Of a stretch of DNA of 64,000 nt, positions 43,436 through 63,904 are shown piece after piece. Positions within the stretch are counted from its first letter, which is position 1. Each line of letters begins with the position of its first letter. Under the pieces are notes generated by a model, which worked only from the letters and a program-made list of their open reading frames with translations, had not been told where the DNA came from and did no database searches. The DNA comes from Acidimicrobiales bacterium (GTDB lineage: Bacteria > Actinomycetota > Acidimicrobiia > Acidimicrobiales > SHLQ01). The stretch is from the NCBI GenBank assembly GCA_020628865.1, contig JAHDEJ010000028.1, positions 398 through 64,397 of the forward strand, given 5' to 3'. Both the position numbers and the translations under genes were made by a program.

Positions 43436-43514
43436 GCAGCGTTGCCGCCGCAGCGCCGATCGTCCACCCGACCGGAGCGTTCCACGCAGAGCAGGCCGGT
43501 ATCCTCGTGGTTCA

Positions 43515-43552
43515 GCCCCCGTAGCTCAGGGGATAGAGCGTCGGTTTCCTAA
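43515..43552 (+). pseudogene. 5' half of host tRNA-Arg(CCT), broken after the anticodon loop (probable attL)
   Basis: GCCCCCG TA GCTC AGGGGATA GAGC G TCGGT TTCCTAA, then TGCAAGG with no ACCGA, T-arm or acceptor 3' strand; TATCCT -10 upstream. Confidence 0.88.
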
Positions 43553-43745
43553 TGCAAGGGAGCTATCGGTGCGATCCGGCCTGAGTATCTGAACCATTGA
43601 GAAATCAGTGATTCTGGCTAGCCACAGATTCGACATGCGACCCTGGAAATCCGTCTAACGGATCATGATGGTGTCGATTCGTTGCAAGAATAGTCAGAAT
43701 CGGTCAGCTTGATTCGCATCTCCATACTTTCTACCCTGCAAAGTC

Positions 43746-45023
43746 ATGGATCGCATCGCAGAGAACCGAGACCGTGCGGGGATGTACTTCGAGCGCGTCG
43801 GCACGGCGCAAGGCGAGGTGTACGAGTCGTCCAGTGGTTGGGTGCTCCGAGTCAGGCTGCGCGCCCGCTCGGGCGAGCAGTACACGTTTCAGCAGAGCGT
43901 GCGTGCTGAGGGGAAGCTCGATGCTCAGTCGAAGCTGCGGGATTGGATCGACACGGTCGCTCTGCCCGAGCTCGTTCAGCGCGCGATTGCCGGCGGCGAG
44001 GTGTCCACGGCTTCCACGCTCGCTCAGTGGTGCCGGACCGATATTGATGCCCGGGCGATGAAGGACAACTCACGGCGGACGGTGACGGCTGCTCTCGAGA
44101 CCTACATCGAGGGAACCGAGCTTGGGCGTCTGCCGGTGGATCACGTGACCACGAAGCAGGTCGAGTCGCATCTGCGCGACCTGGTGACCCCGAGAGGGCC
44201 GGCATCGAACTCGACGAAGAAGAAGATTCTCGGGATCATCAGTCGGGGGATCAAGCAGGCGCAGCGGGAAGGGGAGGTGCGCGGGAACGTCTGTGATGCG
44301 GTGGATGGCGCCTACTACCTGAACCGAGACATGCGCGCCGATGAGCCCCCGGCGATGACGCTGCCCGATTTCGCTGATCTGGTCGAGGAGGCGCAGGCAA
44401 GCAAGGACCGGCGCATGGAGATGATGCTGCGAGTCGTCCGGGGTACGGGAGTCCGGCTCGGTGAGCTGGTTGCTCTGCGCTGGGGAGACATCGAGGAAGG
44501 CACGATCCACGTCGAGCGGGCGGCCCGGAAGAACTCGGATGGCGTCTGGGTGACGGAGGGCATCGGCGGCGAAGAAGCTGCGAAGTCAGAGGCCGGTGCA
44601 CGGCGCATTCCGATCGCGCCCGATCTGTTCCACGAGCTCATGTACTACCGGATCGATCAGAAGCAGCCTCCTAGGTCTGCCTACGTGTTTCCCGGGCCCG
44701 ATGGGGGTGTGGAGGCCCCAACGACCGATGGGACGCGCCTGAAGGCTCTGGGAGCCCGTGTGGGGCATTGCGAGAGGTTGCAGCGGTGCCCGGAGACCGG
44801 ACGGAAGATTTCTCGGTACGTGCCGCTCGGTGGCCGGTCGCACGTGCCGGGCTGGCATCAGATCCGTCGGCTCGTCGCGTCGAGGCTCGTGGAGTCCGGT
44901 CAGCTGTCGGATCCGGAGATCATGGCCATCATGGGCTGGTCCTCGGTGGAGATGCTGCACCGCTACTACCGGGAGACCGATGCGTCGTTCGCCCGGAAGG
45001 CTGCGGCGATGGCGGCGATCTGA
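43746..45023 (+). CDS. int: Tyrosine recombinase / phage integrase
   Basis: TGVRLGELVALRWGDI (R), KSEAGARRIPI (K), WHQIRR (HxxR), MGWSSVEMLHRYY (W, Y). Confidence 0.95.
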   Translation: MDRIAENRDRAGMYFERVGTAQGEVYESSSGWVLRVRLRARSGEQYTFQQSVRAEGKLDAQSKLRDWIDTVALPELVQRAIAGGEVSTASTLAQWCRTDIDARAMKDNSRRTVTAALETYIEGTELGRLPVDHVTTKQVESHLRDLVTPRGPASNSTKKKILGIISRGIKQAQREGEVRGNVCDAVDGAYYLNRDMRADEPPAMTLPDFADLVEEAQASKDRRMEMMLRVVRGTGVRLGELVALRWGDIEEGTIHVERAARKNSDGVWVTEGIGGEEAAKSEAGARRIPIAPDLFHELMYYRIDQKQPPRSAYVFPGPDGGVEAPTTDGTRLKALGARVGHCERLQRCPETGRKISRYVPLGGRSHVPGWHQIRRLVASRLVESGQLSDPEIMAIMGWSSVEMLHRYYRETDASFARKAAAMAAI

Positions 45024-45037
45024 ACGCCTGAGGGGTG

Positions 45038-45076
45038 CTTCTGGGTTCCACGTACCAAAGCCGCGGAACCCAGAAG
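45038..45076. terminator. Hairpin between convergent int and lipoprotein genes
   Basis: 12-bp inverted repeat cttctgggttcc...ggaacccagaag. Confidence 0.6.
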
Positions 45077-45080
45077 TTCC

Positions 45081-45548
45081 CTATCCAACTCGTGTTGCAA
45101 ACACTGCAAACTCGCCGCCAGAGAGACGGAGAACCCCGTTCGAATCGACCGCTACCTCGACTCTTGAATCGGCGCGAAGTAGCTGGTTTAGGGCCGTAGG
45201 AGGCTCGCGCTGACAGTCTTCGAGGACTATCTCAGTCGACGATCCGGTCATGAACCCCCGCTTGTCCAAGACGACCCGCATCGTGCCATCAGTTGGACAA
45301 CCGATGTCGTAGATCAGCCCGACCACTCCGCCGACTTCAGCGCCGAAACGGAAGAACCCACCTGGCTTCGGCGCATCCGCGCCGAAGCCTTCGGTCGACA
45401 CCGCCTCCCATCTTGAGTTCACGAGCTCACGAGCATCGAACTCCGGTTCGACTCGCTCGACGGCCTGCTCTGGTTCGGACTCCGTGCTACTTGTACAACC
45501 AGCGAGCAGCATGGACACAACCATCAGCGCCAACGGGGAGAAGCGCAT
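45081..45548 (-). CDS. Lipoprotein, possibly META-like fold
   Basis: Lipobox LLAG-C; L...RW motif, two further Cys, terminal L.L....VF.R strand pattern. Confidence 0.6.
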   Translation of the reverse strand: MRFSPLALMVVSMLLAGCTSSTESEPEQAVERVEPEFDARELVNSRWEAVSTEGFGADAPKPGGFFRFGAEVGGVVGLIYDIGCPTDGTMRVVLDKRGFMTGSSTEIVLEDCQREPPTALNQLLRADSRVEVAVDSNGVLRLSGGEFAVFATRVG

Positions 45549-45553
45549 ACTGC

Positions 45554-46921
45554 TCAGGAGGTCCTTACCGAGACTCCAAGACGGCTCTCGATCTCTGACA
45601 GTGGGTAGACCGCCATGTATGCCGTGTTCCGCTGGCTGCATTCGCCATTATACACCGGGAACGTTCCCCCTCCGGTAACAATGCCGTATCCGTCTCGGTC
45701 GTTGTGTACTGGACCTCCACTGTCTCCACCACATGCAATCAACGTAGCTCCTTCGACGCGCACCCACACAGGAAGACAGACGCCACTGGCACCGCAAATT
45801 GCGAGCCGGGGAGCATGAGTAATGCTCTCCACAGTTCCACAGCTCTTGCCAGTGTTAACGCCGAAATGACACACCCGATCGCCAAACATGTCGGTTCTGG
45901 CGACGATACGAGCAAGATCCTTCCGCTTCTCCCGTTGAACGTGAAAATCATCTGAGAAACCGTTGTCCGCACCAGCAAGGGTGTAGAGCACTACATCGCC
46001 GTAGTATCCATAGATCGAGTCGGAGTTGGGAGCGTTGTTGATCAAGGCCGATGCCCCCAACGGCGTAGCTCGCGCACGGTTGTAGTGGCGTTCCAGCTGG
46101 CGGTCGCCGCCGTTTTGATCACAATGTGCTGCGGTCAGCATGCCACTTTTGGCTCCCTTCGTGGCAGCAAATCCGGCCGTGCATCTCCGACCACCGACGA
46201 CGGAGATGTGAGCACCACCGTGATACGTCCTCATCTCAGACATCATCGGTCGTTCAACGAATTCAACCACGACCGGAGCAAGAGTCGGAGCGACGTCCAT
46301 ATCCATGTCGGTGGCGCGAAGTGCTTCCACCTCGAGCATCTGGTCCGCTGGCTCACCGGGCAACGCCCGAGCGGCGGCGATCGCTTGGACTGGCTCGATA
46401 AGGACACCTTCCGACATGAGTTGCACAGCCGAAGCCGAGTCGAGACCAACTTCGATCGTATTGTTCCGCATGTTGATATCCAGGGACGAGACCGATGCCA
46501 GCACAGTCTCGCTTAGCCCGTGGTTCGCATTATCAAAGTTCTCAAGAACGGCAGCAAGCTGATCGAACCGGTGAGTCGCGCCCAGTTCGACAATGATCTC
46601 GTCGTCGTTGCGGGCGATACGTTGGGTCTTCTTCGTCGCCGGCTCATCTCCAACCAAGTAGACCCAGCCACCAAAGTTTGGCTCATGGACGATACCCCAA
46701 CCAGCAAGGCGGCTTTCCTCCAGTCCACGAATTCGGTTGACCTTTCGCTTGAGTGCGTCGATCCTGTCCAAGCGTCGCTCGGCTTCATCAAGCGAAACGT
46801 CATAGTCTGCCGCATACGAGCTTATCTCGACCGACACCTCCTCAGTTCCACCAGCTGCGGACGCAAATATTGAAGCCAAGAACCCACAGGTCAAGGCCAC
46901 CGCCATTACTACTCGCCTCAT
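45554..46921 (-). CDS. Secreted S1 (alpha-lytic/streptogrisin-like) serine protease with pro-region
   Basis: Signal peptide; CTAGF, LTAAHC, GD, GGDSGGP triad; GGAG RBS; less GC-biased codons than neighbours. Confidence 0.9.
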   Translation of the reverse strand: MRRVVMAVALTCGFLASIFASAAGGTEEVSVEISSYAADYDVSLDEAERRLDRIDALKRKVNRIRGLEESRLAGWGIVHEPNFGGWVYLVGDEPATKKTQRIARNDDEIIVELGATHRFDQLAAVLENFDNANHGLSETVLASVSSLDINMRNNTIEVGLDSASAVQLMSEGVLIEPVQAIAAARALPGEPADQMLEVEALRATDMDMDVAPTLAPVVVEFVERPMMSEMRTYHGGAHISVVGGRRCTAGFAATKGAKSGMLTAAHCDQNGGDRQLERHYNRARATPLGASALINNAPNSDSIYGYYGDVVLYTLAGADNGFSDDFHVQREKRKDLARIVARTDMFGDRVCHFGVNTGKSCGTVESITHAPRLAICGASGVCLPVWVRVEGATLIACGGDSGGPVHNDRDGYGIVTGGGTFPVYNGECSQRNTAYMAVYPLSEIESRLGVSVRTS

Positions 46922-47035
46922 TTTATCTCCCAGGCAATATTGCACCGAAAAACCCGTCCAACCCGGCACGATCATCGACCATCGGCCACCCGAAGTCAAG
47001 GAACTCCAAACACACCGGCGTCGACCAGGCGCGCA

Positions 47036-47086
47036 GAAGCCCCCACCGGACAGAAAGGACCAACTCTCAGAACCGGCGGGGGCTTC
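47036..47086 (-). ncRNA. Stem-loop (terminator and/or candidate sRNA) with anti-Shine-Dalgarno loop
   Basis: 14-bp stem, fully paired only on the minus strand (G-U there, A-C mismatch on plus); loop contains GGUCCUUUCUGU. Confidence 0.5.
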
Positions 47087-47149
47087 GCGTCATCCCACCC
47101 TACTGGGTGGTCGATGTCGTGTGCATTGGCGGCGTACGATGGGCGGTCT

Positions 47150-47223
47150 GCCCTCGTAGCTCAGTTGGATAGAGCAACCGCCTCCTAAGCGGTAGGTCGT
47201 GCGTTCGATTCGCGCCGGGGGCG
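47150..47223 (+). tRNA. Prophage tRNA-Arg(CCT), complete, CCA not encoded
   Basis: Full cloverleaf: GCCCTCG/CGGGGGC, GCTC/GAGC, ACCGC-CTCCTAA-GCGGT, GTGCG-TTCGATT-CGCGC; TACGAT -10 at 47135. Confidence 0.95.
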
Positions 47224-47224
47224 C

Positions 47225-47437
47225 TCAGTGCATCCGGCGGCGCTTCGGCCAGTACCGCATCGACGGCTTGCGGTTCATCTCCTCGATCCGGCACTCCGCA
47301 CATCGGCGCCAGCGAGTAACACCGTGGGAGCAACTTTCCCGGACGTCGTAGTGAAACCGGTTCGGCGGATCGGCCGGGTTCGACACCCGCTCGTTGACGA
47401 TGCGAGTGCGCGGCTTGTTCTTGCCCCTCTTGCCCAT
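47225..47437 (-). CDS. Small basic phage protein with C-x-H..CxxC motif
   Basis: TGATG coupling to upstream gene; CSHG...CAEC. Confidence 0.55.
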   Translation of the reverse strand: MGKRGKNKPRTRIVNERVSNPADPPNRFHYDVRESCSHGVTRWRRCAECRIEEMNRKPSMRYWPKRRRMH

Positions 47438-47781
47438 CAGTCGATGCCGCCTGCCTGAAGGATGTCTCGGGCCCGATCGCCGAGCAGCATCGTGTCCAGC
47501 CGCAACGTCGGACCCTCCGGGAACTGGTTCGTCCGGCCTTGGGTCGGCACATGCTCAGCCCACGACAGCGCGACCGCGGCGACCTGGATCAGTTCGACGA
47601 TCAGCTTGTCCGGGTCGATCTCGGCTGCCGCTTCGCCGACCTCCTCCATGAGGATCGCCAGCCAGGTGTTCGGGTCCCGGCCTTCGAAGCTGGTCCCCCA
47701 CTTGGCGTCCTGCCGGACTCGTTCGTCGACGACCTCCTCGGAGAGCGTGAGCGTCATCGCCGACGCCAGCGTCTCGTCCAT
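47437..47781 (-). CDS. MazG-like nucleotide pyrophosphohydrolase
   Basis: ERVRQDAKWG, ILMEEVGEAA, ELIQVAAVA. Confidence 0.8.
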   Translation of the reverse strand: MDETLASAMTLTLSEEVVDERVRQDAKWGTSFEGRDPNTWLAILMEEVGEAAAEIDPDKLIVELIQVAAVALSWAEHVPTQGRTNQFPEGPTLRLDTMLLGDRARDILQAGGID

Positions 47782-48050
47782 CACGAACCTCCCTCGTACC
47801 GGGCCTTCAGCGCCTCGTACAGCTGCCGGCCGTCCTCCTCGCCCAAGGATTCCATCGGGTTCGGCGCCACGACGAGCAGCGGTATCAGCGAGTCCGGTTG
47901 GCCGGCGGCGTCGGCTCGGGCCTTCATGTACTCGAGGACACCACCGATGGCCTCCTCGAAATTCGGGCACGGGTCGCCGCTGATCCAGATGATCGCCGTC
48001 GAGAACAGGTCCTCATCGGACATGTTCTGAACTGCGGTTTGGAGGCCCAT
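47781..48050 (-). CDS. Hypothetical phage protein
   Basis: Translationally coupled to both neighbours. Confidence 0.6.
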   Translation of the reverse strand: MGLQTAVQNMSDEDLFSTAIIWISGDPCPNFEEAIGGVLEYMKARADAAGQPDSLIPLLVVAPNPMESLGEEDGRQLYEALKARYEGGS

Positions 48051-48481
48051 CAGAACGGGGCCTCACCCGGGTCGGCTGCCTGAGCTGCTGGCGCTGCCGG
48101 AGCCGGGGCCGCAGCTCGAGCTCCGCCGCCGTCCTGCTGCTTGGCGATGGTGGCGGTCGCGAATCGCAGCGACACCGCCACATCGTTGGCCAGCACTGCC
48201 AGTTTCGAGCGCTTCTCGCCCTGCTCCGTTTCCCATGTCGCGTACTCCAAGGTGCCCTGGACGGCCACTCGGTCACCCTTGCGGCACGAGTCGGCGAGCC
48301 CCTCAGCGAGGGTGCCGAACGCCGTGCAATCGATGAAGTGCGTCTTGTCCTCCGCCCCGTTGAACCCCTTCTGGTTCACGGCGATCGAGAACCGGGCGAG
48401 TGCCTTCCCTCCACCGGTGTAGCGAAGTTCGGGATCTCGGGTGAGGTTGCCTACGAAGGCGGTTGTGTTGTCCATCGCCAT
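48050..48481 (-). CDS. ssb: Single-stranded DNA-binding protein
   Basis: GNLTRDPELRYT, FSIAVN, KGDRVAVQG, C-terminal EAPF. Confidence 0.95.
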   Translation of the reverse strand: MAMDNTTAFVGNLTRDPELRYTGGGKALARFSIAVNQKGFNGAEDKTHFIDCTAFGTLAEGLADSCRKGDRVAVQGTLEYATWETEQGEKRSKLAVLANDVAVSLRFATATIAKQQDGGGARAAAPAPAAPAAQAADPGEAPF

Positions 48482-48502
48482 GGCGAAGGTCCTTTCTGTT
48501 GG

Positions 48503-49162
48503 TCAGACGATCTTGGGGGGTGGCCCCTGATCGATCTGGATGAGGTCGTGACCGTCGTGGAGACGATCGAGTTCTTCGAGGGGGTCGAGGCCAGCTTCGA
48601 GCTGGTCGAGGGTCCACTGGACCCAGCGTCGGCGGTTGTCCCGGGGCATCTTCCGGGAGTTCTCGCTCATGGGAATCCACTGGCAGTTCGAGGGTGTGTA
48701 GTTGCCGTCGGGGTCGATGCGATCGAGGGCGAGCAGGTCAGGTCGAGGGGTGCCCTCTGGCTGGTCGATGTAGCCGTTGGCTCGGGCCCAGTCGCGGAAG
48801 ACCTCGTACCGGATCCACTCCGGGTCGATCGTGATCCCGCGGCCGCCGTAGCGGGGCCATGAGTCGTCGCGATCGTTGGTGCACCGGGACTTCATCGAAA
48901 CCCAGACGCGGTAGAGGCGGGTGTACGACTCGCCGTGAGACACCGGGGGCCCTGCGCCCTCGCCCTTCCGGCACCCACATGAACGCACCTGGCCCCGCCG
49001 GAGGCTTCCGAGTGCCACTTCGTGACCCGTGGTTCCGCAATCGCAGTCGCAGACCATGTAGCGGCGGGGCCTGCGGTTGCGGCCCTCAAGCCGGCGCGGA
49101 GCCTCTCCGGTGACGGTGAGATGCCCGAAGACGGAGCCTTCAGGAATCAGAATCGGCCTCAT
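48503..49162 (-). CDS. Phage HNH-type endonuclease
   Basis: CDCDCG, SCGC, MKSRC, YGGRGI, LDRIDPDGNYTPSNCQW. Confidence 0.85.
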   Translation of the reverse strand: MRPILIPEGSVFGHLTVTGEAPRRLEGRNRRPRRYMVCDCDCGTTGHEVALGSLRRGQVRSCGCRKGEGAGPPVSHGESYTRLYRVWVSMKSRCTNDRDDSWPRYGGRGITIDPEWIRYEVFRDWARANGYIDQPEGTPRPDLLALDRIDPDGNYTPSNCQWIPMSENSRKMPRDNRRRWVQWTLDQLEAGLDPLEELDRLHDGHDLIQIDQGPPPKIV

Positions 49163-50384
49163 CAGCCTCCTCCGTCGGCTTGGCCGGATCGTCTACCTCG
49201 AAGGGCTCCGAGTCTCCTCGGAGGTGTTCGGCGATGGCCCACAAGTCGTCGCGTCCCAGCCGCTTCGAGAACGGGGCGATGCCCTGTGCGTGGCACCAAG
49301 AGTCAAATTGCTCGCGTTCGCCTTCGGGGAGACGTCGGAGCCGCTCAGCGCACTCCTCGTAGAGCGTCGCCCGGTTCGCTGCGGCCGGGGCCTTCTCCTG
49401 CTTCTCCCTGGGGATCAGCGTCGTCGAGGTGTCGACCTCGTTCGGGAGGGCCTTGCGGAGCGCGGCGAGGAGCTGCTCGAGCGCCTGCGGATGCACCTTC
49501 GAGAGGCAGTCCATGTCGACCGTGTAGCCGAGGTTGTTGCCGTCGGCGTCGGCGAACCCGGCCCACCAGCCCTTGCAGGCTTCCTGCCGTTCTTCGGGGA
49601 GCTTGTCGAACAGTTCGAGCGCCTCGACCGCCATCTTCGGCGGGGCCTTCTTGAACCGGGAGTCCGACGTGTTCCGGTTGCGTTCGGCTCGGGCCTGCTT
49701 GTCGGCCTGGTCCATTTCGTCGGAGGTGTAGAGGCCACCCATCTCGTTCGGGAACGACGCGCGGAGAGCGTGGGACTCGGCGACCTTGGCCAGCATGTGG
49801 GTCGGCATCGACTTCCATGTGTCCTTGTTGAGGGCCGCGAATTCCTTCCACAGGGCGACGGCGACCGTCGGCGTCGCGTTGCCGGCGCGCATGACCGCCA
49901 CCCGACACGCGGCCGGGTAGCTGTCCTCGAGCCACACGTCCTTCCAGACACCGTCCGAGCCGCACCACTCGGTCGAGACTCGACCCTGGTACTGGCCGGT
50001 CCGCTCGGCGATGAGCCGCAGACCGTCGATGCTGGTCATGATGGTGACCTTGCCCCGATACTTCGTCCAATAGATCTGGCGGGCAAACGGATCGAGGCCG
50101 GTGCGCTCGCACTGGGTCACGAACAGTTCGAGCTCGTCGTCGGTGGCGTCCGGGGCGATGGTCCGTTTGATCAGGTCGATCTGTTCTCGTTCGTACTTGA
50201 CGATTCCCGCTGATGCGTTGGGTTGGACGGCGAGCGCCTGAGCGTCGGTGACGACAGCGGGGAGCGAGTCGACCGTTTCGGGTTCGGGTCGGGTCGCCGC
50301 AACGACCGGTGTGTCCTCGGCCGTGGGCGTTTCGTCGGACTCGACGACCTCGGCGTCATCGATCGGGGTCTCGACGGTGCTCAT
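49140..50384 (-). CDS. bet: Phage recombination protein Bet (Redbeta-like annealase) with long C-terminal extension
   Basis: ATDDELELF..C..TGLDPFARQIY, SIDGLRLIAERTG, W..MPTHMLAKVAESHALR, GLYTSDEM. Confidence 0.92.
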   Translation of the reverse strand: MSTVETPIDDAEVVESDETPTAEDTPVVAATRPEPETVDSLPAVVTDAQALAVQPNASAGIVKYEREQIDLIKRTIAPDATDDELELFVTQCERTGLDPFARQIYWTKYRGKVTIMTSIDGLRLIAERTGQYQGRVSTEWCGSDGVWKDVWLEDSYPAACRVAVMRAGNATPTVAVALWKEFAALNKDTWKSMPTHMLAKVAESHALRASFPNEMGGLYTSDEMDQADKQARAERNRNTSDSRFKKAPPKMAVEALELFDKLPEERQEACKGWWAGFADADGNNLGYTVDMDCLSKVHPQALEQLLAALRKALPNEVDTSTTLIPREKQEKAPAAANRATLYEECAERLRRLPEGEREQFDSWCHAQGIAPFSKRLGRDDLWAIAEHLRGDSEPFEVDDPAKPTEEADEADSDS

Positions 50385-51010
50385 GAGCCACCGCCCAGAG
50401 CGACGGAGAAGCTGCGGTCGGAGACCTCGGCGGAGATGCCGGGGATGATGTCGCCGTCGGCGGCCACGAACCGTTCGGTGTGGGCGTCGTAGAAGCGGTC
50501 CTTCATCTCGCGGGCGCCGACCGTCTCCTTGACCTTGATGATGTCGTCGTGGCCGTTGGTCTTGCACCAGGCGACCAGGGTGTCCATGTCGGTGATGTTC
50601 ACCTTGGTGGACCCGGCCCGAGACTTCAGCGCTCCGGCCGGGAAGGCCTTCGTCGTCGGCTGCTTCTTTTCGCCTCGGTCTTCGGAGTCGGTGTAGACCG
50701 CTCGGTGCCAGTCGGTGACGACCTTGGTCATGTCCTCGATGCGAGGGGTGACGCCGGCGAGCATGTCGGAGCGCCGGTCTTCGAGCACGGCCATTTCGGA
50801 GGCGTGTTGCTCGGCCAGTCGGGCCCGGTCGGAGTCGCACAGGGCGTTGATGCGGGCCTGCTCGCGCTCCAGGTGAGTCAGGGCCCACATGAGGCGACTG
50901 ATGTACTCCTCGTCCTGGAGTTTGGCCGGGACGATCTCGTCGAATTCACCGCCTCGGAGGGCGTCGAGAGCTTCGTCGCGAAGCTCTCCAGATGGTTCGG
51001 TGATGGTCAT
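50381..51010 (-). CDS. Mu Gam-like host-nuclease inhibitor
   Basis: Coiled-coil N-terminus, then TKAFPAGALKSR..IIKVKE..IIPGI; upstream of bet. Confidence 0.7.
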   Translation of the reverse strand: MTITEPSGELRDEALDALRGGEFDEIVPAKLQDEEYISRLMWALTHLEREQARINALCDSDRARLAEQHASEMAVLEDRRSDMLAGVTPRIEDMTKVVTDWHRAVYTDSEDRGEKKQPTTKAFPAGALKSRAGSTKVNITDMDTLVAWCKTNGHDDIIKVKETVGAREMKDRFYDAHTERFVAADGDIIPGISAEVSDRSFSVALGGGS

Positions 51011-51036
51011 GATGGTCCTTTCTGTAGGTGCCAATC

Positions 51037-51065
51037 ACCGTATCAGAATAGTGTGACAGTATCAA
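51037..51065 (-). promoter_or_regulatory. Sigma70-type promoter of the gam-bet-HNH-ssb-mazG operon
   Basis: TTGATA-17 bp-TACGGT; GTATCA direct repeat overlaps both hexamers. Confidence 0.7.
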
Positions 51066-51184
51066 AGTGTTCAGGTCGCATACGTCGCGCTAACCACCCG
51101 AGTCTTGGCCGGTTTCGTCGCTTCTGTCGGTGCAGCGACGATCGCACTCTGGCGACGAAGCCGCTTCAGGACCTATGGTTGGGC

Positions 51185-51724
51185 ATGAACTTGGATACGA
51201 GCTTGTCGTTTCTCGATGTGCTCATCGCCATCGCGTCGCTTGTGTCCGGCGGCGCAGGCGGCACCTTCCTCGGTGCCGTCGCACGTGGTCGACATGTCGC
51301 GCGTGACCGGATTCGAACCGAACTTTTTCCCGTGATGGCGGCGGAACACCTCGCGATGTTGGAGGAAGGCTCGAACCAGCCGGATGTGCATGTCCGGCTG
51401 GAGCTCGAGTCGCTGTTGCTCGGCCTGCCGTACACGGACCGAGTCTTCTACAAGCGCTACGCCAGCGCTGCGCAGAAGGCGATCGAGGCCGGCGGCGACG
51501 ACGCCACGAGATCCGAGCTGGACAAGACCACCAAGGCGTTCCGACGATTCCTGGTCGACAGGGTCAACCCGAGTTTCCTGTCACCGATCCGGAACCGATG
51601 GCGCTCGTTTCAGGCATGGACGAATCGGGTGACGAAAACTACGGATGCCAGCATCTCGGAGAACGTGCCAACACAGCTCGCCGTGCTTCGGGAGTTCCGC
51701 GATCGCGAGACTGTCGACTGCTGA
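51185..51724 (+). CDS. Hypothetical membrane-anchored protein (moron)
   Basis: N-terminal TM; opposite strand to flanking phage operons. Confidence 0.6.
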   Translation: MNLDTSLSFLDVLIAIASLVSGGAGGTFLGAVARGRHVARDRIRTELFPVMAAEHLAMLEEGSNQPDVHVRLELESLLLGLPYTDRVFYKRYASAAQKAIEAGGDDATRSELDKTTKAFRRFLVDRVNPSFLSPIRNRWRSFQAWTNRVTKTTDASISENVPTQLAVLREFRDRETVDC

Positions 51725-51727
51725 CGA

Positions 51728-52141
51728 CTACGCGCCAGCAAGAGGCCGCTCTTCGGCCTCGGTCGTGTTGAACGACCAAATCTGTGCCTGCGCAATCGCG
51801 TTGTCGATCGCAGTGCCGTCCGGCCATCCCGGCGCAGACACCTGACCCGCTCGAAGTGCACCAATCGTGATCGCCAGACCCCACAGGCCGGGGTCAGCTA
51901 CGAACACGCTTGGTTCATGCAGATCGTCTGGGGTGCTCACGACGAAGCTGACCGTCAGGAAGCAGTCGTCCTGAAGCGAACCGTCGATTTCGATCTTGGC
52001 CGCGCCGGAGAGCTCGAGGGACTCCGACATCGCGAACACCAGAGCGTTCACGTCCTCCGTCTCGGCGCCGAGGCCAGAAATTTTCAGCTGACATTGGAAA
52101 CGGATTCGCGTGCTGGTGCTTCTCTGCTTCGTGTGTGCCAT
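51728..52141 (-). CDS. Hypothetical protein (antitoxin-like position)
   Basis: GAAGGAG RBS; starts immediately after the upstream small ORF. Confidence 0.55.
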   Translation of the reverse strand: MAHTKQRSTSTRIRFQCQLKISGLGAETEDVNALVFAMSESLELSGAAKIEIDGSLQDDCFLTVSFVVSTPDDLHEPSVFVADPGLWGLAITIGALRAGQVSAPGWPDGTAIDNAIAQAQIWSFNTTEAEERPLAGA

Positions 52142-52142
52142 T

Positions 52143-52367
52143 TCAGATCACTCCTTCCAGGGCCTTCATACTACGGATCCGATGGCCGATGCTCTCGCAT
52201 CCATCGGCAAGTGCGGTCTGAACGTTGAGGTACCGGAACTCATCCCACTTCGGACACCACAGGACGTATCGACCGGCAGTACCCGAGTATTGCACGGACC
52301 CACCAAGGAGATGTAGTCGGTTGAGCAACTGGTCAACACAAGATTCCGCCGGTACATCCGTCCACAT
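52143..52367 (-). CDS. Small hypothetical protein (74 aa)
   Basis: MWTDVPAESC...ALEGVI; stop abuts the next ATG. Confidence 0.4.
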   Translation of the reverse strand: MWTDVPAESCVDQLLNRLHLLGGSVQYSGTAGRYVLWCPKWDEFRYLNVQTALADGCESIGHRIRSMKALEGVI

Positions 52368-52702
52368 ACTGGGCGCACACGGTATCGGCGATTGGGGGAA
52401 ATCCCCCCATCGGGCGATGCGGGTTTGAAGAAGGGTGTTCACACACTGATCAACGCGCAAGGATGGTCCTCCAATTCCCGCGTTCGGGGGTCGCTTCTCA
52501 GGGCGTGACGCAGTACGACGTGAGGATCCAACCGGTCCGTCCCTGCGCGATGAAATCCCGCACCGCCTGAGCGGACGGGAAGGGCCCGAACTCCCGGTTG
52601 TCCGGGGCCTTGGCATAGAACTCGTAGCGCTTCGCCTGTTGCATGGGTTGAGAGACCCCAGTACCTGAGGTCATGTCGATGGTGGACGTTCAAGCCATGC
52701 GA

Positions 52703-52948
52703 TCAGTCCTCAGGGGGCGTGTCCTGAGCGCCCTCAGGAGCGCCTGTGGGCGCTTCGGGAGGCTCAACGGTGGACGGGTCGATCGGATCGTCGGGAGAGC
52801 CAACGACAGCCACGAGGCCGGCCTTGATCCACACGTCGGCCAGCTCGGTCGGGATGATGCGCGTCGTGCCCCGCTGGAAGCCGTTGAACCCGGTCAGGGC
52901 CTCGACCTCGGTCATCGGGATCTCGTCCTCAGTCTTCTTTTTCGCCAC
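52703..52948 (-). CDS. Small phage protein at end of tail operon
   Basis: GTG 52948 with GAGGAGG RBS. Confidence 0.6.
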   Translation of the reverse strand: MAKKKTEDEIPMTEVEALTGFNGFQRGTTRIIPTELADVWIKAGLVAVVGSPDDPIDPSTVEPPEAPTGAPEGAQDTPPED

Positions 52949-53174
52949 GGCGGCGCCTCCTCTTGTGTCGTGCCCGCTTGGGCAGGTCTTGCGCAGGATC
53001 CAGAGCTGCGGCGAGGAACGTCGCCTGCTCTTCTTCGACCTGCATTGCTTCTTCCTCATCGATCTCGACGATCTCGATGGTGAACTCGCCGTCCCCGAAC
53101 TGAGGTGGCGTGTCGCTGTTCGTGGTCATCACCGAAGCGATGCCGACGTCGTTGACGATCAGGTAGCGCTTCAC
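52929..53174 (-). CDS. Small acidic phage protein
   Basis: GTGA overlap with upstream stop; GGAGGG RBS. Confidence 0.55.
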   Translation of the reverse strand: MKRYLIVNDVGIASVMTTNSDTPPQFGDGEFTIEIVEIDEEEAMQVEEEQATFLAAALDPAQDLPKRARHKRRRRRGEKED

Positions 53175-53740
53175 CAGTTCCCTCCGTACAGATGCGTCTT
53201 GGCCTGGCCGAAACTGTTGGTCGTCGCCGTCGAGGTGAGAACGTCGCCGGGTGCCCGCACCTCGGTCGCGGTCAGCATCAGGGGCACGAACCAGCGCTCG
53301 TTGTTGTTCTGGGACGTGAACGTGACCACACCGCTGTTCGCCGGGTTCAACTGATCCGTGGTCGGACCACCCACGATGTCGGTGCGCTGCCACGTCGCAG
53401 CCGAACCGACCGCCACCGTCACCTGCCCAGTGCCGCCACCCGTCCACGTCGCGATCGACAGGGCGCCACCGTTGGCCTGGTTGCGGGCACTGCGAGCCAC
53501 CGGCGCCGGCGGCAGACCGCGGACCCACACGCCGAACGAGAACGGCCCGTTCTGCACACCCATCTGGTTGTTCCACACGCCGGTGTTCGGGTCGGTGCCG
53601 TTCGGGTCGAACCAGTCGCCGAACGGCCACGACTGGGCGGGCTCACCAAAGATGAACCGGGCCGCCAGATTCGACAGGATCTCCAGGCCAGCGTTGACCC
53701 CAGCGACGAAGGTTCCCCAGCACCATGAACGAGCGCCCAT
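53171..53740 (-). CDS. Putative minor tail / tail-tip protein
   Basis: Beta-rich G/T/N composition; coupled within the tail operon. Confidence 0.5.
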   Translation of the reverse strand: MGARSWCWGTFVAGVNAGLEILSNLAARFIFGEPAQSWPFGDWFDPNGTDPNTGVWNNQMGVQNGPFSFGVWVRGLPPAPVARSARNQANGGALSIATWTGGGTGQVTVAVGSAATWQRTDIVGGPTTDQLNPANSGVVTFTSQNNNERWFVPLMLTATEVRAPGDVLTSTATTNSFGQAKTHLYGGNW

Positions 53741-54381
53741 CAGTACAACATCCCTTCGATTTCAGCGGTCCAGTCGAAGATCTCGACGGTCGGCGTGTCG
53801 GTCGAGCCGTACACCTGCCACCGGACGGTGTCCGCCCAGCATTCGCCCGGAGCGATCGGGTCGCGGGGCGCCAACGGCATGCCCACCGAGATGCCGGCGG
53901 TCGTGATTTCGCCGGCGGCCTCGTAGCGCATCGGCAACGGCAGGTAGATGCCTTCGTGGTTGTCGAGGTTCAGGGCGTACGCGACGAGGAGCACGGCGAG
54001 CCCTTCGAACTCGAGCCGGTAGTTGAACGTCAGGGTCGCGACCGCCATGCCGAGCATCGAATGCGCGCACGACGGGTTGCACACCTCGAACGAGACTTCC
54101 AATGCGTCCTCGGGATCGGTGCGGTTCACGACCGGCAGACCGGACCCCTGGCCTTCCTGGAAAACCTCGATCGGCACCGACGCCGGTCGGGCTTCGGGGG
54201 CGCGCAAGCCGTCTTCGGCGCGGATCAACCCGGCCCCGTACAGCAGCGTCGATGGCTCGCCTTCGCGGTTGCCGTTCTGGCCGAGCACGTCGAGCTCGAC
54301 GGAGTAGCGCGGCGGGGTGACCGCGTAGTCGATCGACACGTCGGCGCAGTCGCCCGATGAGGGCTGCTGTTCACAGCTCAT
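53740..54381 (-). CDS. Putative minor tail protein
   Basis: Operon position; ATGA overlap. Confidence 0.5.
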   Translation of the reverse strand: MSCEQQPSSGDCADVSIDYAVTPPRYSVELDVLGQNGNREGEPSTLLYGAGLIRAEDGLRAPEARPASVPIEVFQEGQGSGLPVVNRTDPEDALEVSFEVCNPSCAHSMLGMAVATLTFNYRLEFEGLAVLLVAYALNLDNHEGIYLPLPMRYEAAGEITTAGISVGMPLAPRDPIAPGECWADTVRWQVYGSTDTPTVEIFDWTAEIEGMLY

Positions 54382-54974
54382 GCGATCACCCAGCTCCAAT
54401 ACAGCCGGTTCCGGCCGTAGTTCGCGGCCGCTGCGGGCCGGGTCGAGTACCAGTGGTCGACGGTGACATCGATGGCCGGGGGCGCTTCGGGGGTGCCCAT
54501 GCCGGCGCCGGCCGGGATCGGGATCAGGGCGGTGGCGCAGATGATCGACGGGACGAGCGCGGTCGCTCCAGCGTTGTAGGGGATGTCCTTCTTGCGGGTC
54601 TTGATCAGCTTGTCGTTGCGCGAGATGCGCAGGTGATGGGTTGATCCGCCGAGGCCGGTCTGGCAGTTGTCGATGATCGCGTTGACGACCACGAAGATGT
54701 GCTTGTCGTAGCCATCAGGGTTCGTGAAGTTCAGGGTGTCGCGGTAGGCGGTGTCGCCGAACGTCGGGTCGGCGAGGATCTGGTTGCGGTCGCCGCCTCG
54801 AGGCCGCCGGACATGCGGTTCGACCCACGCGCCGTCGGGGGAACAGTGCAGGGCGGTGTCGCAGCCGGTGGCGTCGACGGGGAAGGCGTTCTGCTCGTTG
54901 ACCTGGTAGGTCTGGCCGCCCTGCAGGTTGCCCATCTGGACGGATGTGTTGCTGTCGACGGGTGCGAGAGGCAT
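54378..54974 (-). CDS. Putative minor tail protein
   Basis: Operon position; beta-rich C-terminus. Confidence 0.5.
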   Translation of the reverse strand: MPLAPVDSNTSVQMGNLQGGQTYQVNEQNAFPVDATGCDTALHCSPDGAWVEPHVRRPRGGDRNQILADPTFGDTAYRDTLNFTNPDGYDKHIFVVVNAIIDNCQTGLGGSTHHLRISRNDKLIKTRKKDIPYNAGATALVPSIICATALIPIPAGAGMGTPEAPPAIDVTVDHWYSTRPAAAANYGRNRLYWSWVIA

Positions 54975-55022
54975 GTCAGAACCCTACTTTCCGGCTGGTC
55001 ATCATCATGTTTCTCCCGTATC

Positions 55023-55202
55023 TCACTGTTGGCCGATCATCGGGCCGGTCTGACCGGTCGGCACGTAGATGATTCGCAGCTCCGAACCGACCTCGACCGC
55101 CCGCCACTCGTCCGATGGCAGCTTGGCGAGACGCCGCTCGTGCTCACGCAACTGACGCTCCATCCGTTCGAGCTTGTCGACGAGGTCGTTCTCTACGAGC
55201 AT
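55023..55202 (-). CDS. Small coiled-coil tail-associated protein
   Basis: DLVDKLERMERQLREHERRL; TGATG coupling. Confidence 0.55.
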   Translation of the reverse strand: MLVENDLVDKLERMERQLREHERRLAKLPSDEWRAVEVGSELRIIYVPTGQTGPMIGQQ

Positions 55203-56251
55203 CAGGACTCTCCAGCGATCGGGGCGAACGTGACGCGGATGCGCCCGTTGAACGTGAACTTGATCCGGTCCACCCGGAAGTTCTGCTTGATCGGCCGCAG
55301 CTGATTCGCGACCGTCACCGTGCACACGTTCCCCGGGGTCAGCTGACCGATCGACACGGCCGCATCGGGGGACAGCGACGCGTTCTTCGGGAGCTCGATG
55401 AACACTGGGATGCGCAGCTGAGCGAGCCGCTGCTTGCCGGCGACGAGCAGCTCAGATTCCGAGCCCATGGACTGCTCCACGAACGTCTTCTCGAGCAGGC
55501 CGTCCGCGGCGATCAGCACCGGGTCCTCGACGGTGACGGTCAGGCCGCCCTTGCCGATCATGATGACCCGGTTCGCTTGGACCCGGCCCTTGTGGTGCAC
55601 GAAGACCTCACCGAGGAAGTCCCGGTCAGACAGCGAGAACGACGGGGTCAACCGGTCCGACGCGGAGCGGACGTAGACGGTTCGGCCACGCGACACCCAG
55701 TTGCAGTCGGCTCGAGCGAAGTCGGACAGGACATCGCCGAGCATTCGGCCGTCGGCGCCGTCGATGAACCGGGTGACCTCGATGTCGCCGGGGGTGGTGG
55801 CCAGCCCGAAGTTCGGGGACGTGTCCTCAGCCATCGAGGTGTCGTGGATCGATTGGAACACGGCGGTGGCTTCACCGGTCAGGTTCGTGGCCATGGCGCG
55901 GCGGTGCTTCCACCAGTGGGTCCAGTCGCCGAAGTCGATGCTGACGCCTTCGACGCCGTGCTTCACGTCAACGAGCGGCCCCCAGACCAGCTCACCGCCG
56001 AACGACAGGACGCGGGCCTCGTACCGCCAGGCGGCGATCTCTCGGGTGATCGAGTTGCCGACCCGGAAGCCGTCGGGAGCGATCAGCCCGTCATGGGGCA
56101 AGAAGAACTTGCCGCGGCTGTAGCCGGACTCGATCATGTCGACCGAACCCTTGGTGTCGGGGGTGGTGTGGAATGTGCCGATCGGAGGGCCACCGCCACG
56201 AGGCCGAATCTCGACGCTCGTGTCCAGGCCCTCACCGAGCCGAGTGACCAT
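55202..56251 (-). CDS. Minor tail protein (baseplate hub, ReqiPepy6 gp37-like)
   Basis: Second gene after tape measure; ELVWGP, QLTPG, FRVDRIKF. Confidence 0.7.
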   Translation of the reverse strand: MVTRLGEGLDTSVEIRPRGGGPPIGTFHTTPDTKGSVDMIESGYSRGKFFLPHDGLIAPDGFRVGNSITREIAAWRYEARVLSFGGELVWGPLVDVKHGVEGVSIDFGDWTHWWKHRRAMATNLTGEATAVFQSIHDTSMAEDTSPNFGLATTPGDIEVTRFIDGADGRMLGDVLSDFARADCNWVSRGRTVYVRSASDRLTPSFSLSDRDFLGEVFVHHKGRVQANRVIMIGKGGLTVTVEDPVLIAADGLLEKTFVEQSMGSESELLVAGKQRLAQLRIPVFIELPKNASLSPDAAVSIGQLTPGNVCTVTVANQLRPIKQNFRVDRIKFTFNGRIRVTFAPIAGES

Positions 56252-57597: not shown

Positions 57598-57605
57598 GAT
57601 CGCCC

Positions 57606-59711: not shown

Positions 59712-60073
59712 TAGAACGTCCCGCCGTCAGGGACCTGGTTGAGGCCTTCGTCGAACCACGACGGCGGCAACTGGCCGACGAGATGATCGGGCAGCGACCC
59801 GTCAGCGTCCTGCTGAAGCGGTCGGGCCCACACGTGCTCGAGTTCCTGACGCCGAAGCGCGATGTCGTCGAAGCCTTCCTTGGTGTTGGCGATCGTCGCC
59901 GAAAACTCAATCTCCCGGTGCAGGAACGCGTAGTAGACGTTCAGCTGCTCACGGATGGTCAGGCTGTGGAGGCTCCGCCCTGAGGAGAGGAGGAGTTCGC
60001 CGTCGAGTCGGGCACGGCGGGCGGGACTGGAGTGGAGGGATCCGAGGAGGACGAGTCCCCCTCGGTAGGGAAA
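59711..60073 (-). CDS. -1 frameshift extension of tail assembly chaperone (gpGT-like)
   Basis: Open -1 frame from the slippery site to the stop overlapping the tape measure ATG. Confidence 0.7.
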   Translation of the reverse strand, partial: FPYRGGLVLLGSLHSSPARRARLDGELLLSSGRSLHSLTIREQLNVYYAFLHREIEFSATIANTKEGFDDIALRRQELEHVWARPLQQDADGSLPDHLVGQLPPSWFDEGLNQVPDGGTF

Positions 60074-60417: not shown

Positions 60418-60453
60418 ACGTAGAAAGTATCACCAGCGACGTGGGACCCTGCA

Positions 60454-63061: not shown

Positions 63062-63066
63062 CGGCC

Positions 63067-63831: not shown

Positions 63832-63904
63832 GGGGTCCTCCGAGGATCAGGCTGAGAGCTGTTTCTCGAAGGGCCCGGAACACCGGTGGTACGGCCCTGA
63901 CGCC

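What the first reader, a model, noticed from the sequence alone, without database searches (positions are those of the whole stretch)
43515..47223. Prophage breaks the host tRNA-Arg(CCU) at the anticodon loop and carries a different, complete tRNA-Arg(CCU)
Seen: a tRNA 5' half with its own -10 box ends at TTCCTAA (43552) and is followed by non-tRNA sequence and the integrase. A complete same-anticodon tRNA with its own -10 box lies at 47150. It is not the host gene rejoined, because its anticodon stem is ACCGC/GCGGT and the host TCGGT cannot pair with GCGGT. Known: tRNA-targeting tyrosine integrases normally restore the gene with a 3' fragment carried in attP. tRNA-dependent lysogeny is reported for some mycobacteriophages. 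Inference: this is a 'break and replace in trans' strategy using a very short core (about TTCCTAA). It would make the lysogen depend on the prophage for dedicated AGG decoding and would select against partial deletion.
Basis: partly seen in the sequence, partly recalled or inferred. Interest (0 to 1): 0.85.

Follow-up and report, generated by a model that had tools for sequence, protein, structure and literature searches.

The report
Prophage splits tRNA-Arg, carries replacement
A very large dormant virus in a marine actinobacterium has cut the host's only AGG-specialist arginine tRNA gene in two without repairing it and carries its own copy of that tRNA, a viral strategy first described in 2024 and seen here for a new tRNA, a new integrase and a new host group.

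Summary
The host tRNA-Arg(CCT) 5' half (window 43515-43552) stops at TTCCTAA. Its missing 3' half lies on another contig of the same genome (C73), behind phage DNA. Together the two halves are identical to the intact gene of the closest relative. The two junctions share only 11 bp (CGGTTTCCTAA), and neither forms a tRNA. The insert is a prophage of at least 108 kb. The only tRNA-Arg(CCT) in the assembly is the phage's own gene at 47150-47224, a foreign-type gene. This is tRNA-dependent lysogeny (Guerrero-Bustamante and Hatfull 2024, PMC10865867), so it is a new member of a known kind. New here are the isotype (Arg-CCT), an integrase with no close relatives, an Acidimicrobiales host and a very large phage. 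A sister prophage in the same cell rebuilds its tRNA-Arg(CCG) target with a 42-bp repeat. In two other genomes of the order, elements cut the same site but rebuild the tRNA with an element-borne 5' half. Dependence on the phage tRNA is not shown, because tRNA-Arg(TCT) is present and precise excision would restore the gene. This scan's earlier AI notes describe the same break-and-replace pattern on other DNA.

The parts
43500..43505 (+). TATCCT, candidate -10 of the host tRNA-Arg(CCT) promoter (inferred)
   Evidence: GGTATCCTCG is conserved at the same distance before the intact tRNA of relative G014. The consensus promoter scan does not call it.
43515..43552 (+). Host tRNA-Arg(CCT) 5' half, positions 1-38 (acceptor 5' strand, D arm, 5' strand of the anticodon stem, anticodon loop); part of attL
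   Evidence: Identical to positions 1-38 of the intact tRNA of G014. No tRNA is called here.
43542..43552 (.). Common core CGGTTTCCTAA (11 bp) shared by attL and attR
   Evidence: There are only two exact copies in the genome, here and at C73:57752-57762.
43553..43745 (+). P' arm of attP, with a candidate arm-type site AACGGATCATGAT at 43657-43669
   Evidence: The same 13-mer lies in direct orientation about 112 nt before the core in the P arm on C73. There is no terminator-like site between the tRNA half and int. There is no vestige of a tRNA 3' half (85 of 300 shuffles reach the score).
43746..45023 (+). Tyrosine integrase, 425 aa
   Evidence: PF00589 E 7.1e-13, 49.1 bits. R (GVRLGEL), HxxR (HQIRR), W and Y (GWSS...HRYY) can be read in the translation (consensus recalled). 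No close relatives.
45081..45641 (-). 186-aa ORF of unknown function, in the lower-G+C stretch between int and the tRNA
   Evidence: No Pfam or PHROG family. G+C is 0.57-0.58 at 45-47 kb against about 0.66 around it.
45554..46999 (-). 481-aa ORF, weakly trypsin-like
   Evidence: PF00089 E 0.0058, 16.9 bits, below the 20.6-bit cut-off. No PHROG.
47135..47140 (+). TACGAT, candidate -10 of the phage tRNA (inferred)
   Evidence: It ends 9 nt before the tRNA, the same spacing as at the host gene. The consensus scan does not call it.
47150..47224 (+). Phage-borne complete tRNA-Arg(CCT), the only one in the assembly
   Evidence: ARAGORN. Rfam 64.5 bits. 1 of 53 tRNAs genome-wide. Foreign-type anticodon arm ACCGC-CTCCTAA-GCGGT.
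47225..64000 (-). Rest of the prophage inside the window: SSB 48050-48481, HNH endonuclease 48503-49162, RecT-domain protein 49140-50888, minor tail 55202-56392, tape-measure-like 57606-59711
   Evidence: Pfam and PHROG hits. The prophage runs on to the end of contig C109 and into C100, C99 and C73.

Best explanation
A temperate phage of at least 108 kb integrated through its tyrosine integrase into the anticodon loop of the host's single tRNA-Arg(CCT) gene. attP shares only 11 bp (CGGTTTCCTAA) with attB. That stretch is four bases of the 5' strand of the anticodon stem plus the loop. As a result, neither attL (5' half only) nor attR (core plus 3' half) is a tRNA gene. The prophage carries a complete tRNA-Arg(CCT) of a different sequence type 3.6 kb inside attL, and this presumably supplies the lost function. 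This is tRNA-dependent lysogeny.

Shown here: the anatomy of both junctions, the single-copy status, the phage nature of the insert, and the soundness of the cargo tRNA as a sequence.

Inferred: that the cargo tRNA is expressed and compensates, and that lysogens need it.
For: - Halves: the 5' half at window 43515-43552 and the 3' half at C73:57717-57751 (minus strand) together equal the intact tRNA of the closest relative G014, base for base.
- Core: exactly two copies in the genome, one at each junction.
- No tRNA at attL. Only a sub-threshold partial match at attR, 21.7 bits against 29.
- One Arg(CCT) among 53 tRNAs, and it is the phage-borne one. In the genus, 4 of 5 genomes have exactly one host-type anticodon arm.
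- Phage genes on both sides: WhiB, RusA and an XRE-type regulator next to attR; helicase, methyltransferase, portal, head-morphogenesis and major head proteins on C73; tape measure, minor tail, RecT, SSB, HNH and integrase on C109.
- Contigs link by 55-bp overlaps, C73 to C99 to C100. C109 and C90 end in the same 55-mer.
- A 13-bp candidate arm site lies in both arms.
- The cargo tRNA differs from the core at 3 of 11 positions, so it is not itself a perfect target.
- Logan contigs of the source sample carry the junction with 0 mismatches.
- The published definition matches point by point (PMC10865867: abstract and sections 5, 6, 10, 11). It includes a phage tRNA unlike the host's, flanking arm sites and cores of 8-17 bp.
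Against: - Need for the cargo tRNA is untested. tRNA-Arg(TCT) is present and may read AGG by wobble (recalled). AGG is rare in host genes, 1.9 per 1000 codons.
- The two halves lie on different contigs, and the path between C100 and C109 is not closed. The middle of the prophage is collapsed with a sister prophage. So the pairing of C73 with C109 rests on the att sites alone.
- Synteny in G014 does not confirm that the two host flanks were neighbours.
- The assembly is 95.9% complete. The source sample holds short tRNA-like unitigs of 46 and 61 nt, at depths of about 100 and 332, with 1 and 3 differences from the 5' half. Four contigs that fit up to 43552 run on in an ACCGTGCG-like consensus. 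I cannot assign them to an organism.
- The integrase has no close relatives, so no family-wide pattern could be shown.
- All read evidence comes from the sample that gave the assembly.
Confidence: 0.8

Rival explanations
1. The integration is simply a tolerated gene knock-out. tRNA-Arg(CCU) is dispensable because tRNA-Arg(UCU) reads AGG. On this view the phage tRNA is ordinary cargo, kept for codon usage or to counter tRNA-cleaving defences, and lysogeny does not depend on it.
For: - tRNA-Arg(TCT) is intact on C106.
- AGG is only 2.7% of host Arg codons, but 4.5% and 4.4% in the two prophages. A codon-usage role is therefore plausible.
- G321 shows the same break, and no intact Arg(CCT) was found in the places examined. 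That genome is only 79% complete.
- The mBio Discussion itself raises anti-defence roles for phage tRNAs.
Against: - The only tRNA supported by both programs in the assembled >=108 kb of the prophage has exactly the anticodon of the gene it destroys. That is about 1 chance in 40 if unrelated.
- The host-type gene is conserved across the order: intact in 7 of 7 loci that held it and single-copy in the genus.
- In 2 of the 3 other breaks examined, the elements rebuild the tRNA. This argues that losing it is costly.
Confidence: 0.14
2. Assembly, binning or rearrangement artefact. The halves on C109 and C73 would not flank one insert. Possible causes are chimeric contigs, two strains, or recombination between the two sister prophages that moved one arm.
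For: - The genome is a 113-contig metagenome-derived assembly.
- The two prophages share a collapsed block, and the C100-C109 link is open.
- Host-flank depth exceeds prophage depth by about a third: 361/371/387 against 268/284/295.
Against: - Both junctions are precise to the base, share the 11-bp core, and sum exactly to a relative's intact tRNA.
- The sister prophage's own ends pair separately: an intact tRNA-Arg(CCG) on C51 and a 42-bp repeat on C90.
- Logan contigs built with another program reproduce the junction in three runs.
- A rearrangement between the prophages would still leave the tRNA broken and unrebuilt.
Confidence: 0.04
3. Decay of a once canonical site. The tRNA would have been rebuilt at integration and later lost its rebuilt half by deletion, so the prophage would be a stranded remnant.
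For: - The 14-16 nt next to the core in the P arm weakly resemble tRNA positions 14-27. In an anchored test, 30 of 2000 shuffles reach the score.
- Elements at the same site in G089 and G069 carry a full 5' half.
Against: - The host 3' half is contiguous with host DNA, the host 5' half is contiguous with host DNA, and nothing is missing between them. The tRNA was therefore never rebuilt in this chromosome.
- The resemblance concerns attP evolution in the phage lineage, not decay after integration.
- The local alignment test was negative: 1929 of 2000 shuffles reach the score.
- The prophage ORFs are long and open.
Confidence: 0.02

Closest known systems
tRNA-dependent lysogeny of actinobacteriophages (Fionnbharth K4, Cluster L, Cain K6, Gaia X, Gordonia CQ2/DL; Guerrero-Bustamante and Hatfull, mBio 2024, PMC10865867; abstract and sections 5, 6, 10, 11 read)
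   Same: - A tyrosine integrase, with attB inside a single-copy tRNA gene.
- A core of about 10 bp (8-17 in their Table 2; 11 here), and no tRNA at either junction.
[quoted passage not shown] Their closest relatives to the phage tRNA were at 88% in other species; here up to 93% in other lineages.
- Putative arm sites flanking the core.
- Closely related phages that use canonical rebuilding instead.
   Different: - The isotype is Arg-CCT. Their table lists Lys-TTT, Ile2-CAT and Leu-CAA. No paper in the searched library holds both 'tRNA-dependent lysogeny' and 'tRNA-Arg'. Supplements were not seen.
- No Mycobacterium or Gordonia phage integrase matched at E<=1e-5.
- The host is an uncultured Acidimicrobiales bacterium, not Mycobacteriales or Propionibacteriales.
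- The prophage is at least 108 kb.
- The core lies on the 5' side of the anticodon loop.
- The broken tRNA may be wobble-redundant, so dependence may be weaker.
- Nothing has been tested experimentally.
Lo5R7ANS-like prophages in tRNA-Leu(UAG) of Sinorhizobium meliloti (PMC11476347; passages read), and Lactobacillus johnsonii prophage Lj965 as cited in the mBio Discussion
   Same: Integration in the middle of a tRNA gene inactivates it. The prophage carries a tRNA of the same anticodon that resembles genes of other taxa more than the host's.
   Different: Other phyla, other isotypes and small ordinary prophages. Those cases were also described from genomes only.
Canonical tRNA-rebuilding integration at the same site (G089 and G069 of the same order), and in the sister prophage of the same cell
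   Same: - G089 and G069 have the same attB and the same break point after TTCCTAA.
- A tyrosine integrase sits near the tRNA.
- The sister prophage is syntenic over both arms at 65-82% DNA identity. Its integrase is 28.5-32% identical. It also targets the anticodon loop of an arginine tRNA.
   Different: - The G089 and G069 elements carry a whole tRNA 5' half, so an intact tRNA stands at the far junction.
- The sister prophage carries 42 bp of the 3' part.
- None of them carries a cognate whole tRNA.

Membership tests
tRNA-dependent lysogeny (PMC10865867) | A phage-encoded tyrosine integrase next to attP | tested here: met
   PF00589 E 7.1e-13, above the cut-off, 193 nt from the core. Catalytic R, HxxR, W and Y can be read in the translation (consensus recalled).
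tRNA-dependent lysogeny (PMC10865867) | attB overlaps a host tRNA gene | tested here: met
   The halves at attL and attR sum to the intact tRNA-Arg(CCT) of G014.
tRNA-dependent lysogeny (PMC10865867) | Short common core (about 10 bp), and no functional tRNA rebuilt at attL or attR | tested here: met
   11-bp core, two copies in the genome. No tRNA at attL at E<=10. attR scores 21.7 bits, below the 29-bit cut-off, and lacks the acceptor 5' strand and D arm. ARAGORN calls neither.
tRNA-dependent lysogeny (PMC10865867) | [quoted passage not shown] | tested here: met
   tRNA-Arg(CCT) at 47150-47224, 64.5 bits. All 9 of its 9 best matches in the phylum sample are tRNA-Arg(CCT) genes.
tRNA-dependent lysogeny (PMC10865867) | The host has no other copy of that tRNA | tested here: met
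   1 Arg(CCT) among 53 ARAGORN calls in a 95.9%-complete assembly. Caveat: unassigned tRNA-like unitigs in the source sample.
tRNA-dependent lysogeny (PMC10865867) | The phage tRNA is required for viable lysogens (clear plaques when it is deleted) | not testable with these tools
   This needs genetics. tRNA-Arg(TCT) is present and may buffer the loss.
tRNA-dependent lysogeny (PMC10865867) | The element is a temperate phage | tested here: met
   Portal, major head, head morphogenesis, tape measure, minor tail, RecT, SSB, RusA, an XRE-type regulator and integrase. Inducibility was not tested.
Canonical tRNA-rebuilding integrative elements (Campbell model) | An intact tRNA at one junction and a displaced fragment at the other | tested here: not met
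   Neither junction holds a tRNA. The same test is met by the sister prophage and by G089 and G069.
Group I intron in a tRNA anticodon loop | An intron RNA fold followed by the 3' exon within a few hundred bases | tested here: not met
   No intron family at E<=10 in 43450-43750, and none at gathering score in the window. The 3' half lies on another contig, behind phage DNA.

The most novel reading that the evidence does not exclude
The phage does more than compensate: it replaces. The lysogen's only AGG-specialist tRNA becomes a phage-controlled molecule of foreign type, with a different anticodon stem and C32 in place of U32. The site it occupies is one where the local norm is to rebuild the tRNA with an element-borne 5' half. 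The broken tRNA may not be essential, because tRNA-Arg(UCU) can wobble-read AGG. The pay-off would then not be rescue from lethality. It could be control of AGG-rich genes, since the prophage uses AGG 1.7 times as often as the host. It could be resistance to anticodon-loop nucleases. It could also be capture of the host tRNA promoter, which now points into int with no terminator between them.
Probability: 0.15. Interest if true: 0.6.

Novelty: new member of a known kind. Interest (0 to 1): 0.4.

Why it matters
It extends tRNA-dependent lysogeny to a fourth tRNA isotype and to an unrelated integrase lineage. It also extends it to an uncultured marine class of Actinomycetota and to a phage of more than 100 kb. 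This supports the authors' guess that the strategy is widespread and arose several times. The same cell offers a natural contrast: a syntenic sister prophage that rebuilds its arginine tRNA target. Relatives in the order rebuild the very same site with a 5' half. That makes the evolutionary step from 'rebuild' to 'replace' unusually traceable. The case also asks whether the strategy works on a tRNA that wobble could make dispensable. On the practical side, island finders that rely on long tRNA repeats would miss such prophages.

Tried and rejected
The real attR has ACCGT and lies on C73.
- A survey of integrase relatives was not possible.
  - Phage collection: 3 weak hits, <=28.8% identity.
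  - 400 other genomes of the order: 0 at E<=1e-20.
  - Word-based search: only the query itself.
  - phmmer over 1.84 billion representatives: best full-length hit 32% identity, plus one 51-aa fragment at 73%.
  - Viral contigs: none.
- The phage has no close relatives in viral contigs, searched by major head protein. The RecT protein found only two distant loci at 47-48% identity, which I did not pursue.
- The 28-base junction sequence is absent from the metagenome, viral and genome contig collections.
- A vestigial tRNA 3' half in the P' arm is rejected: 85 of 300 shuffles reach the score.
- A vestigial 5' half in the P arm gets only a weak anchored signal (30 of 2000 shuffles), and the local test is negative.
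- The RNA from the 5' half to int has no special fold (z = -0.57).
- Synteny of the C73 host flank with G014 gave only multi-copy matches. Only 1 of 10 named relatives keeps the flank gene next to the tRNA.
- A lysogen/non-lysogen mixture could not be resolved.
- G321 has the same break and no intact Arg(CCT) in the places checked, but it is only 79% complete, so it is inconclusive.


Full report
**Observation.** The window is G000:C109:398-64397.
- At 43515-43552 lies a perfect tRNA 5' half: acceptor strand GCCCCCG, D arm, TCGGT, and the loop TTCCTAA with anticodon CCT.
- It is followed by unrelated DNA and, 193 nt on, by a 425-aa tyrosine integrase at 43746-45023.
- ARAGORN and Rfam find one tRNA in the window, tRNA-Arg(CCT) at 47150-47224, at 64.5 bits against a cut-off of 29.
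- Even at E<=10, Rfam sees no tRNA or intron at 43450-43750.
- The complete gene is not the host gene rejoined. Its anticodon stem is ACCGC/GCGGT, and its D loop, variable loop and T stem also differ.

**Where the other half is.**
- A genome-wide motif search found the missing 3' half on another contig, C73, on the minus strand. The core sits at 57752-57762 and the 3' half at 57717-57751. A WhiB gene and an AT-rich spacer precede it, and a hairpin and host genes follow it.
- The closest relative, G014, shares the upstream gene at 79% DNA identity. It has an intact tRNA-Arg(CCT) there.
- That gene equals the C109 5' half plus the C73 3' half, base for base.
- The native tRNA has a T27/T43 mismatch, also seen in six more genomes of the genus and order.
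- The two junctions share exactly 11 bp, CGGTTTCCTAA, and these are the only two copies in the genome.
- attR scores 21.7 bits, below the 29-bit cut-off, and has no acceptor 5' strand or D arm.

**Copy number.**
- ARAGORN finds 53 tRNAs in the 5.36-Mb, 113-contig assembly (95.9% complete).
- Each of the five arginine anticodons occurs once, and the Arg(CCT) is the gene at 47150.
- Of 5 genomes of the genus, 4 have exactly one host-type anticodon arm and 1 has none.

**The insert is a very large prophage.**
- On C109, from attL inward: integrase, two ORFs in a lower-G+C stretch, the tRNA, SSB, an HNH endonuclease, a RecT-domain protein, minor tail and tape-measure-like proteins.
- On C73, from attR inward: WhiB, RusA and an XRE-type regulator, then about 70 kb of mostly small same-strand genes. 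These include a methyltransferase and an SF1 helicase, then portal, head-morphogenesis and major head proteins.
- C73 runs by 55-bp overlaps into C99 and C100. The link from C100 to the end of C109 is open.
- The assembled parts sum to about 108 kb.
- The phage-borne Arg(CCT) is the only tRNA in them that both programs support. An ARAGORN-only Leu call inside an ORF at C109:69293-69389 is not in the Rfam list.

**A sister prophage as internal control.**
- A second prophage is syntenic with the first over both arms at 65-82% DNA identity, with one 560-bp stretch at 99.6%. It runs C51:63839 to 1, then C99 and C100, then C90.
- It shares the collapsed middle block. C99 also links to C51, and C109 and C90 end in the same 55-mer.
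- Its integrase is 28.5-32% identical to the first.
- It sits beside an intact tRNA-Arg(CCG). A 42-bp repeat, running from the anticodon loop to the 3' end, marks the far junction on C90.
- So two related phages in one cell both target arginine tRNA anticodon loops. One rebuilds the gene and the other does not.

**attP anatomy.**
- The 13-mer AACGGATCATGAT lies in direct orientation about 112 nt before the core (P arm, C73) and 104 nt after it (window 43657-43669). I estimate that chance would give about 0.001 such matches, so these are candidate arm-type sites.
- The P' arm holds no vestige of a tRNA 3' half.
- The 16 nt before the core weakly resemble tRNA positions 14-27. In the anchored test 30 of 2000 shuffles reach the score, and the local test is negative.
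- No terminator-like site separates the host tRNA promoter region from int. Read-through into int is therefore possible, but this is inference only.

**The cargo tRNA.**
- Its anticodon arm, ACCGC-CTCCTAA-GCGGT, differs from the core at 3 of 11 positions.
- In a sample of 400 other genomes of the phylum, its best matches are 93% (G565), 91% (G484, G425), 90% (G481, G741), 89% (G686) and 88% (G041, same order). Native host-type genes of the order match at about 81%.
- All 9 of the 9 best loci are tRNA-Arg(CCT) genes, and 7 of the 8 aligned share the cargo's anticodon arm; G741 differs in the 3' strand.
- None of these claims rests on the genomes flagged as unpublished.

**Is the junction real?**
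- Three runs of one sample (an algae metagenome, probably the source of the assembly) hold the stretch.
- Their Logan contigs reproduce the phage side from 43523 onward with 0 mismatches. The host side runs up to 43518-43548, and the break falls at the tRNA, as expected for a branch in a k=31 graph.
- This evidence is not independent of the assembly.
- Host-flank depth is 361/371/387 and prophage depth is 268/284/295, a ratio of 0.74-0.76. This may mean that about a quarter of the population lacks the prophage.
- I could not assign any attB-type contig to this strain. Unitigs of 46 and 61 nt, with 1 and 3 differences from the 5' half, and other short contigs that run on into an ACCGTGCG-like consensus, remain unassigned.

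**Relatives of the site.**
- The integrase has no close relatives anywhere I searched, so I surveyed the site instead.
- The pattern 'host-type 5' half not followed by A' occurs in 5 of 401 genomes of the order, G000 included. One of these, G065, is unpublished and was not examined.
- G089: the 38-nt 5' half is repeated 15 kb downstream as part of an intact tRNA. A 388-aa integrase and one more gene lie just before that tRNA.
- G069: the displaced 5' half (GCCCCCG) lies on one contig. The intact tRNA lies on another, behind an integrase 38.5% identical to that of G089. It has a variant 5' half (GCCCTCG, A26) joined to a 3' strand that pairs perfectly with the displaced copy.
- So these elements cut at the same point but rebuild the gene with an element-borne 5' half.
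- G321 (79% complete) has the same break, integrase remnants, and no intact Arg(CCT) in the places checked. It is inconclusive.
- Of the four breaks examined, ours is the only one without a rebuilt gene and with a cognate whole tRNA.
- The G089-type integrase is only 27.5% identical to ours, over the N-terminal half.

**Host.**
- The named records closest to the flanking gene (84%, 76%, 76% and 74% identity) are titled uncultured Acidimicrobiales bacteria.
- WhiB in the prophage fits an actinobacterial host. That this family is restricted to actinobacteria is recalled, not tested.

**Comparison with what is known.**
- Guerrero-Bustamante and Hatfull (mBio 2024, PMC10865867) define tRNA-dependent lysogeny by exactly these features. 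I read the abstract and sections 5, 6, 10 and 11.
- They show by genetics that the phage tRNA is needed for lysogeny.
- Their Table 2 lists cores of 8-17 bp and the isotypes Lys-TTT, Ile2-CAT and Leu-CAA. The hosts are Mycobacterium and Gordonia.
- Their Discussion cites Lactobacillus prophage Lj965.
- A Sinorhizobium study reports tRNA-Leu(UAG) broken by prophages that carry a cognate tRNA (PMC11476347, passages read). A follow-up found no such case in phiLM21-like prophages (PMC12429752, passages read).
- No paper in the searched library holds both 'tRNA-dependent lysogeny' and 'tRNA-Arg'.
- Earlier AI notes of this scan describe the same break-and-replace layout in at least eight other genomes. 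They are leads, not evidence.

**Mechanism and its limits.**
- Shown: the junction anatomy, the single copy, the phage nature of the insert, and a sound cognate tRNA.
- Inferred: Int-mediated crossover within the 11-bp core, expression of the phage tRNA from its own promoter, and compensation for the lost gene.
- Uncertain: whether the lysogen needs it. AGG makes up 1.9 per 1000 host codons, and 3.3 and 3.1 per 1000 in the two prophages. tRNA-Arg(TCT) is present and may read AGG by wobble (recalled).
- Precise excision would rebuild the host gene. The arrangement therefore penalises partial deletion of the prophage, not its clean loss.

**Verdict.** This is a new member of a known kind: tRNA-dependent lysogeny with a new isotype, integrase lineage, host class and phage size. 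Informative canonical relatives sit in the same cell and at the same site. Interest is moderate.

Noticed in passing
G000:C51:1-63913 with C99, C100 and C90:1-26678 (outside the window): A second very large prophage, syntenic with the first. It integrated canonically next to an intact tRNA-Arg(CCG) (C51 c63839-63913), with a 42-bp 3' repeat at C90:26637-26678. Its integrase (C51:62427-63728) is 28.5-32% identical to the one in the window.
   Followed up: partly
G000 contigs C99 (3672 bp) and C100 (3562 bp); ends of C109 and C90: The two prophages share a near-identical middle block that the assembler collapsed. C99 links to both C73 and C51. C109 and C90 end in the same 55-mer, and a 560-bp stretch near those ends is 99.6% identical. 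This suggests recent exchange between the two prophages.
   Followed up: partly
window 42900-47400 in runs X1-X3: Logan contig depth is 361/371/387 on the host flank and 268/284/295 on the prophage side. Short tRNA-like unitigs (46 nt at depth about 100, 61 nt at depth about 332) differ from the 5' half at 1 and 3 positions. Other short contigs run on into an ACCGTGCG-like consensus. This may be a non-lysogen subpopulation or other community members.
   Followed up: no
window 45081-46999: The two minus-strand ORFs between int and the phage tRNA lie in a stretch of 0.57-0.58 G+C, against about 0.66 around it. One is weakly trypsin-like (below the cut-off) and the other has no family. They look like a later-acquired cargo module.
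   Followed up: partly
window 49140-50888: The RecT domain (residues 234-397) sits in a 582-aa protein, so it has long extensions on both sides that match no family.
   Followed up: no
L095 (G089:C19:113500-129527) and L097 (G069:C29:24000-40000): Elements of other Acidimicrobiales cut tRNA-Arg(CCT) at the same point but rebuild it with an element-borne 5' half and, presumably, promoter. In G069 the rebuilt gene has a G-T wobble in the acceptor stem, and the displaced host copy pairs perfectly.
   Followed up: partly
L096 (G321:C128:1-12000), L093, L094: G321 has the same broken 5' half with integrase remnants on both sides, and no intact Arg(CCT) in the places checked. It also has two displaced 3' fragments of a tRNA with a CTTCTAA loop (Arg-TCT type) on C213 and C199.
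   Followed up: partly
G015:C28:110276-110326 and 112252-112289: A same-genus genome has a second, 86%-identical partial match to the tRNA 5' region 2 kb before its intact tRNA. It may be a displaced 5' half of a small element.
   Followed up: no
L002 about 900-1030, minus strand (G014, just after its intact tRNA): Read by eye, the DNA after the intact tRNA of G014 looks like the start of an integrase-like ORF, so this tRNA may also host a canonical element there. Not tested with any tool.
   Followed up: no
G000:C73:57640-57715 (L013 about 2640-2715): The hairpin GGGGTCTGACCCC... just after the tRNA 3' end matches many places in G014 at 83-88% identity. It may be a REP-like palindromic repeat.
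   Followed up: no
G000:C109:69293-69389 and C51:52597-52672: ARAGORN calls a 97-nt tRNA-Leu(gag) inside a 538-aa ORF of prophage 1 and a tRNA-Pro(tgg) inside prophage 2. Neither is in the Rfam tRNA list for the genome, so they are probably false calls.
   Followed up: partly
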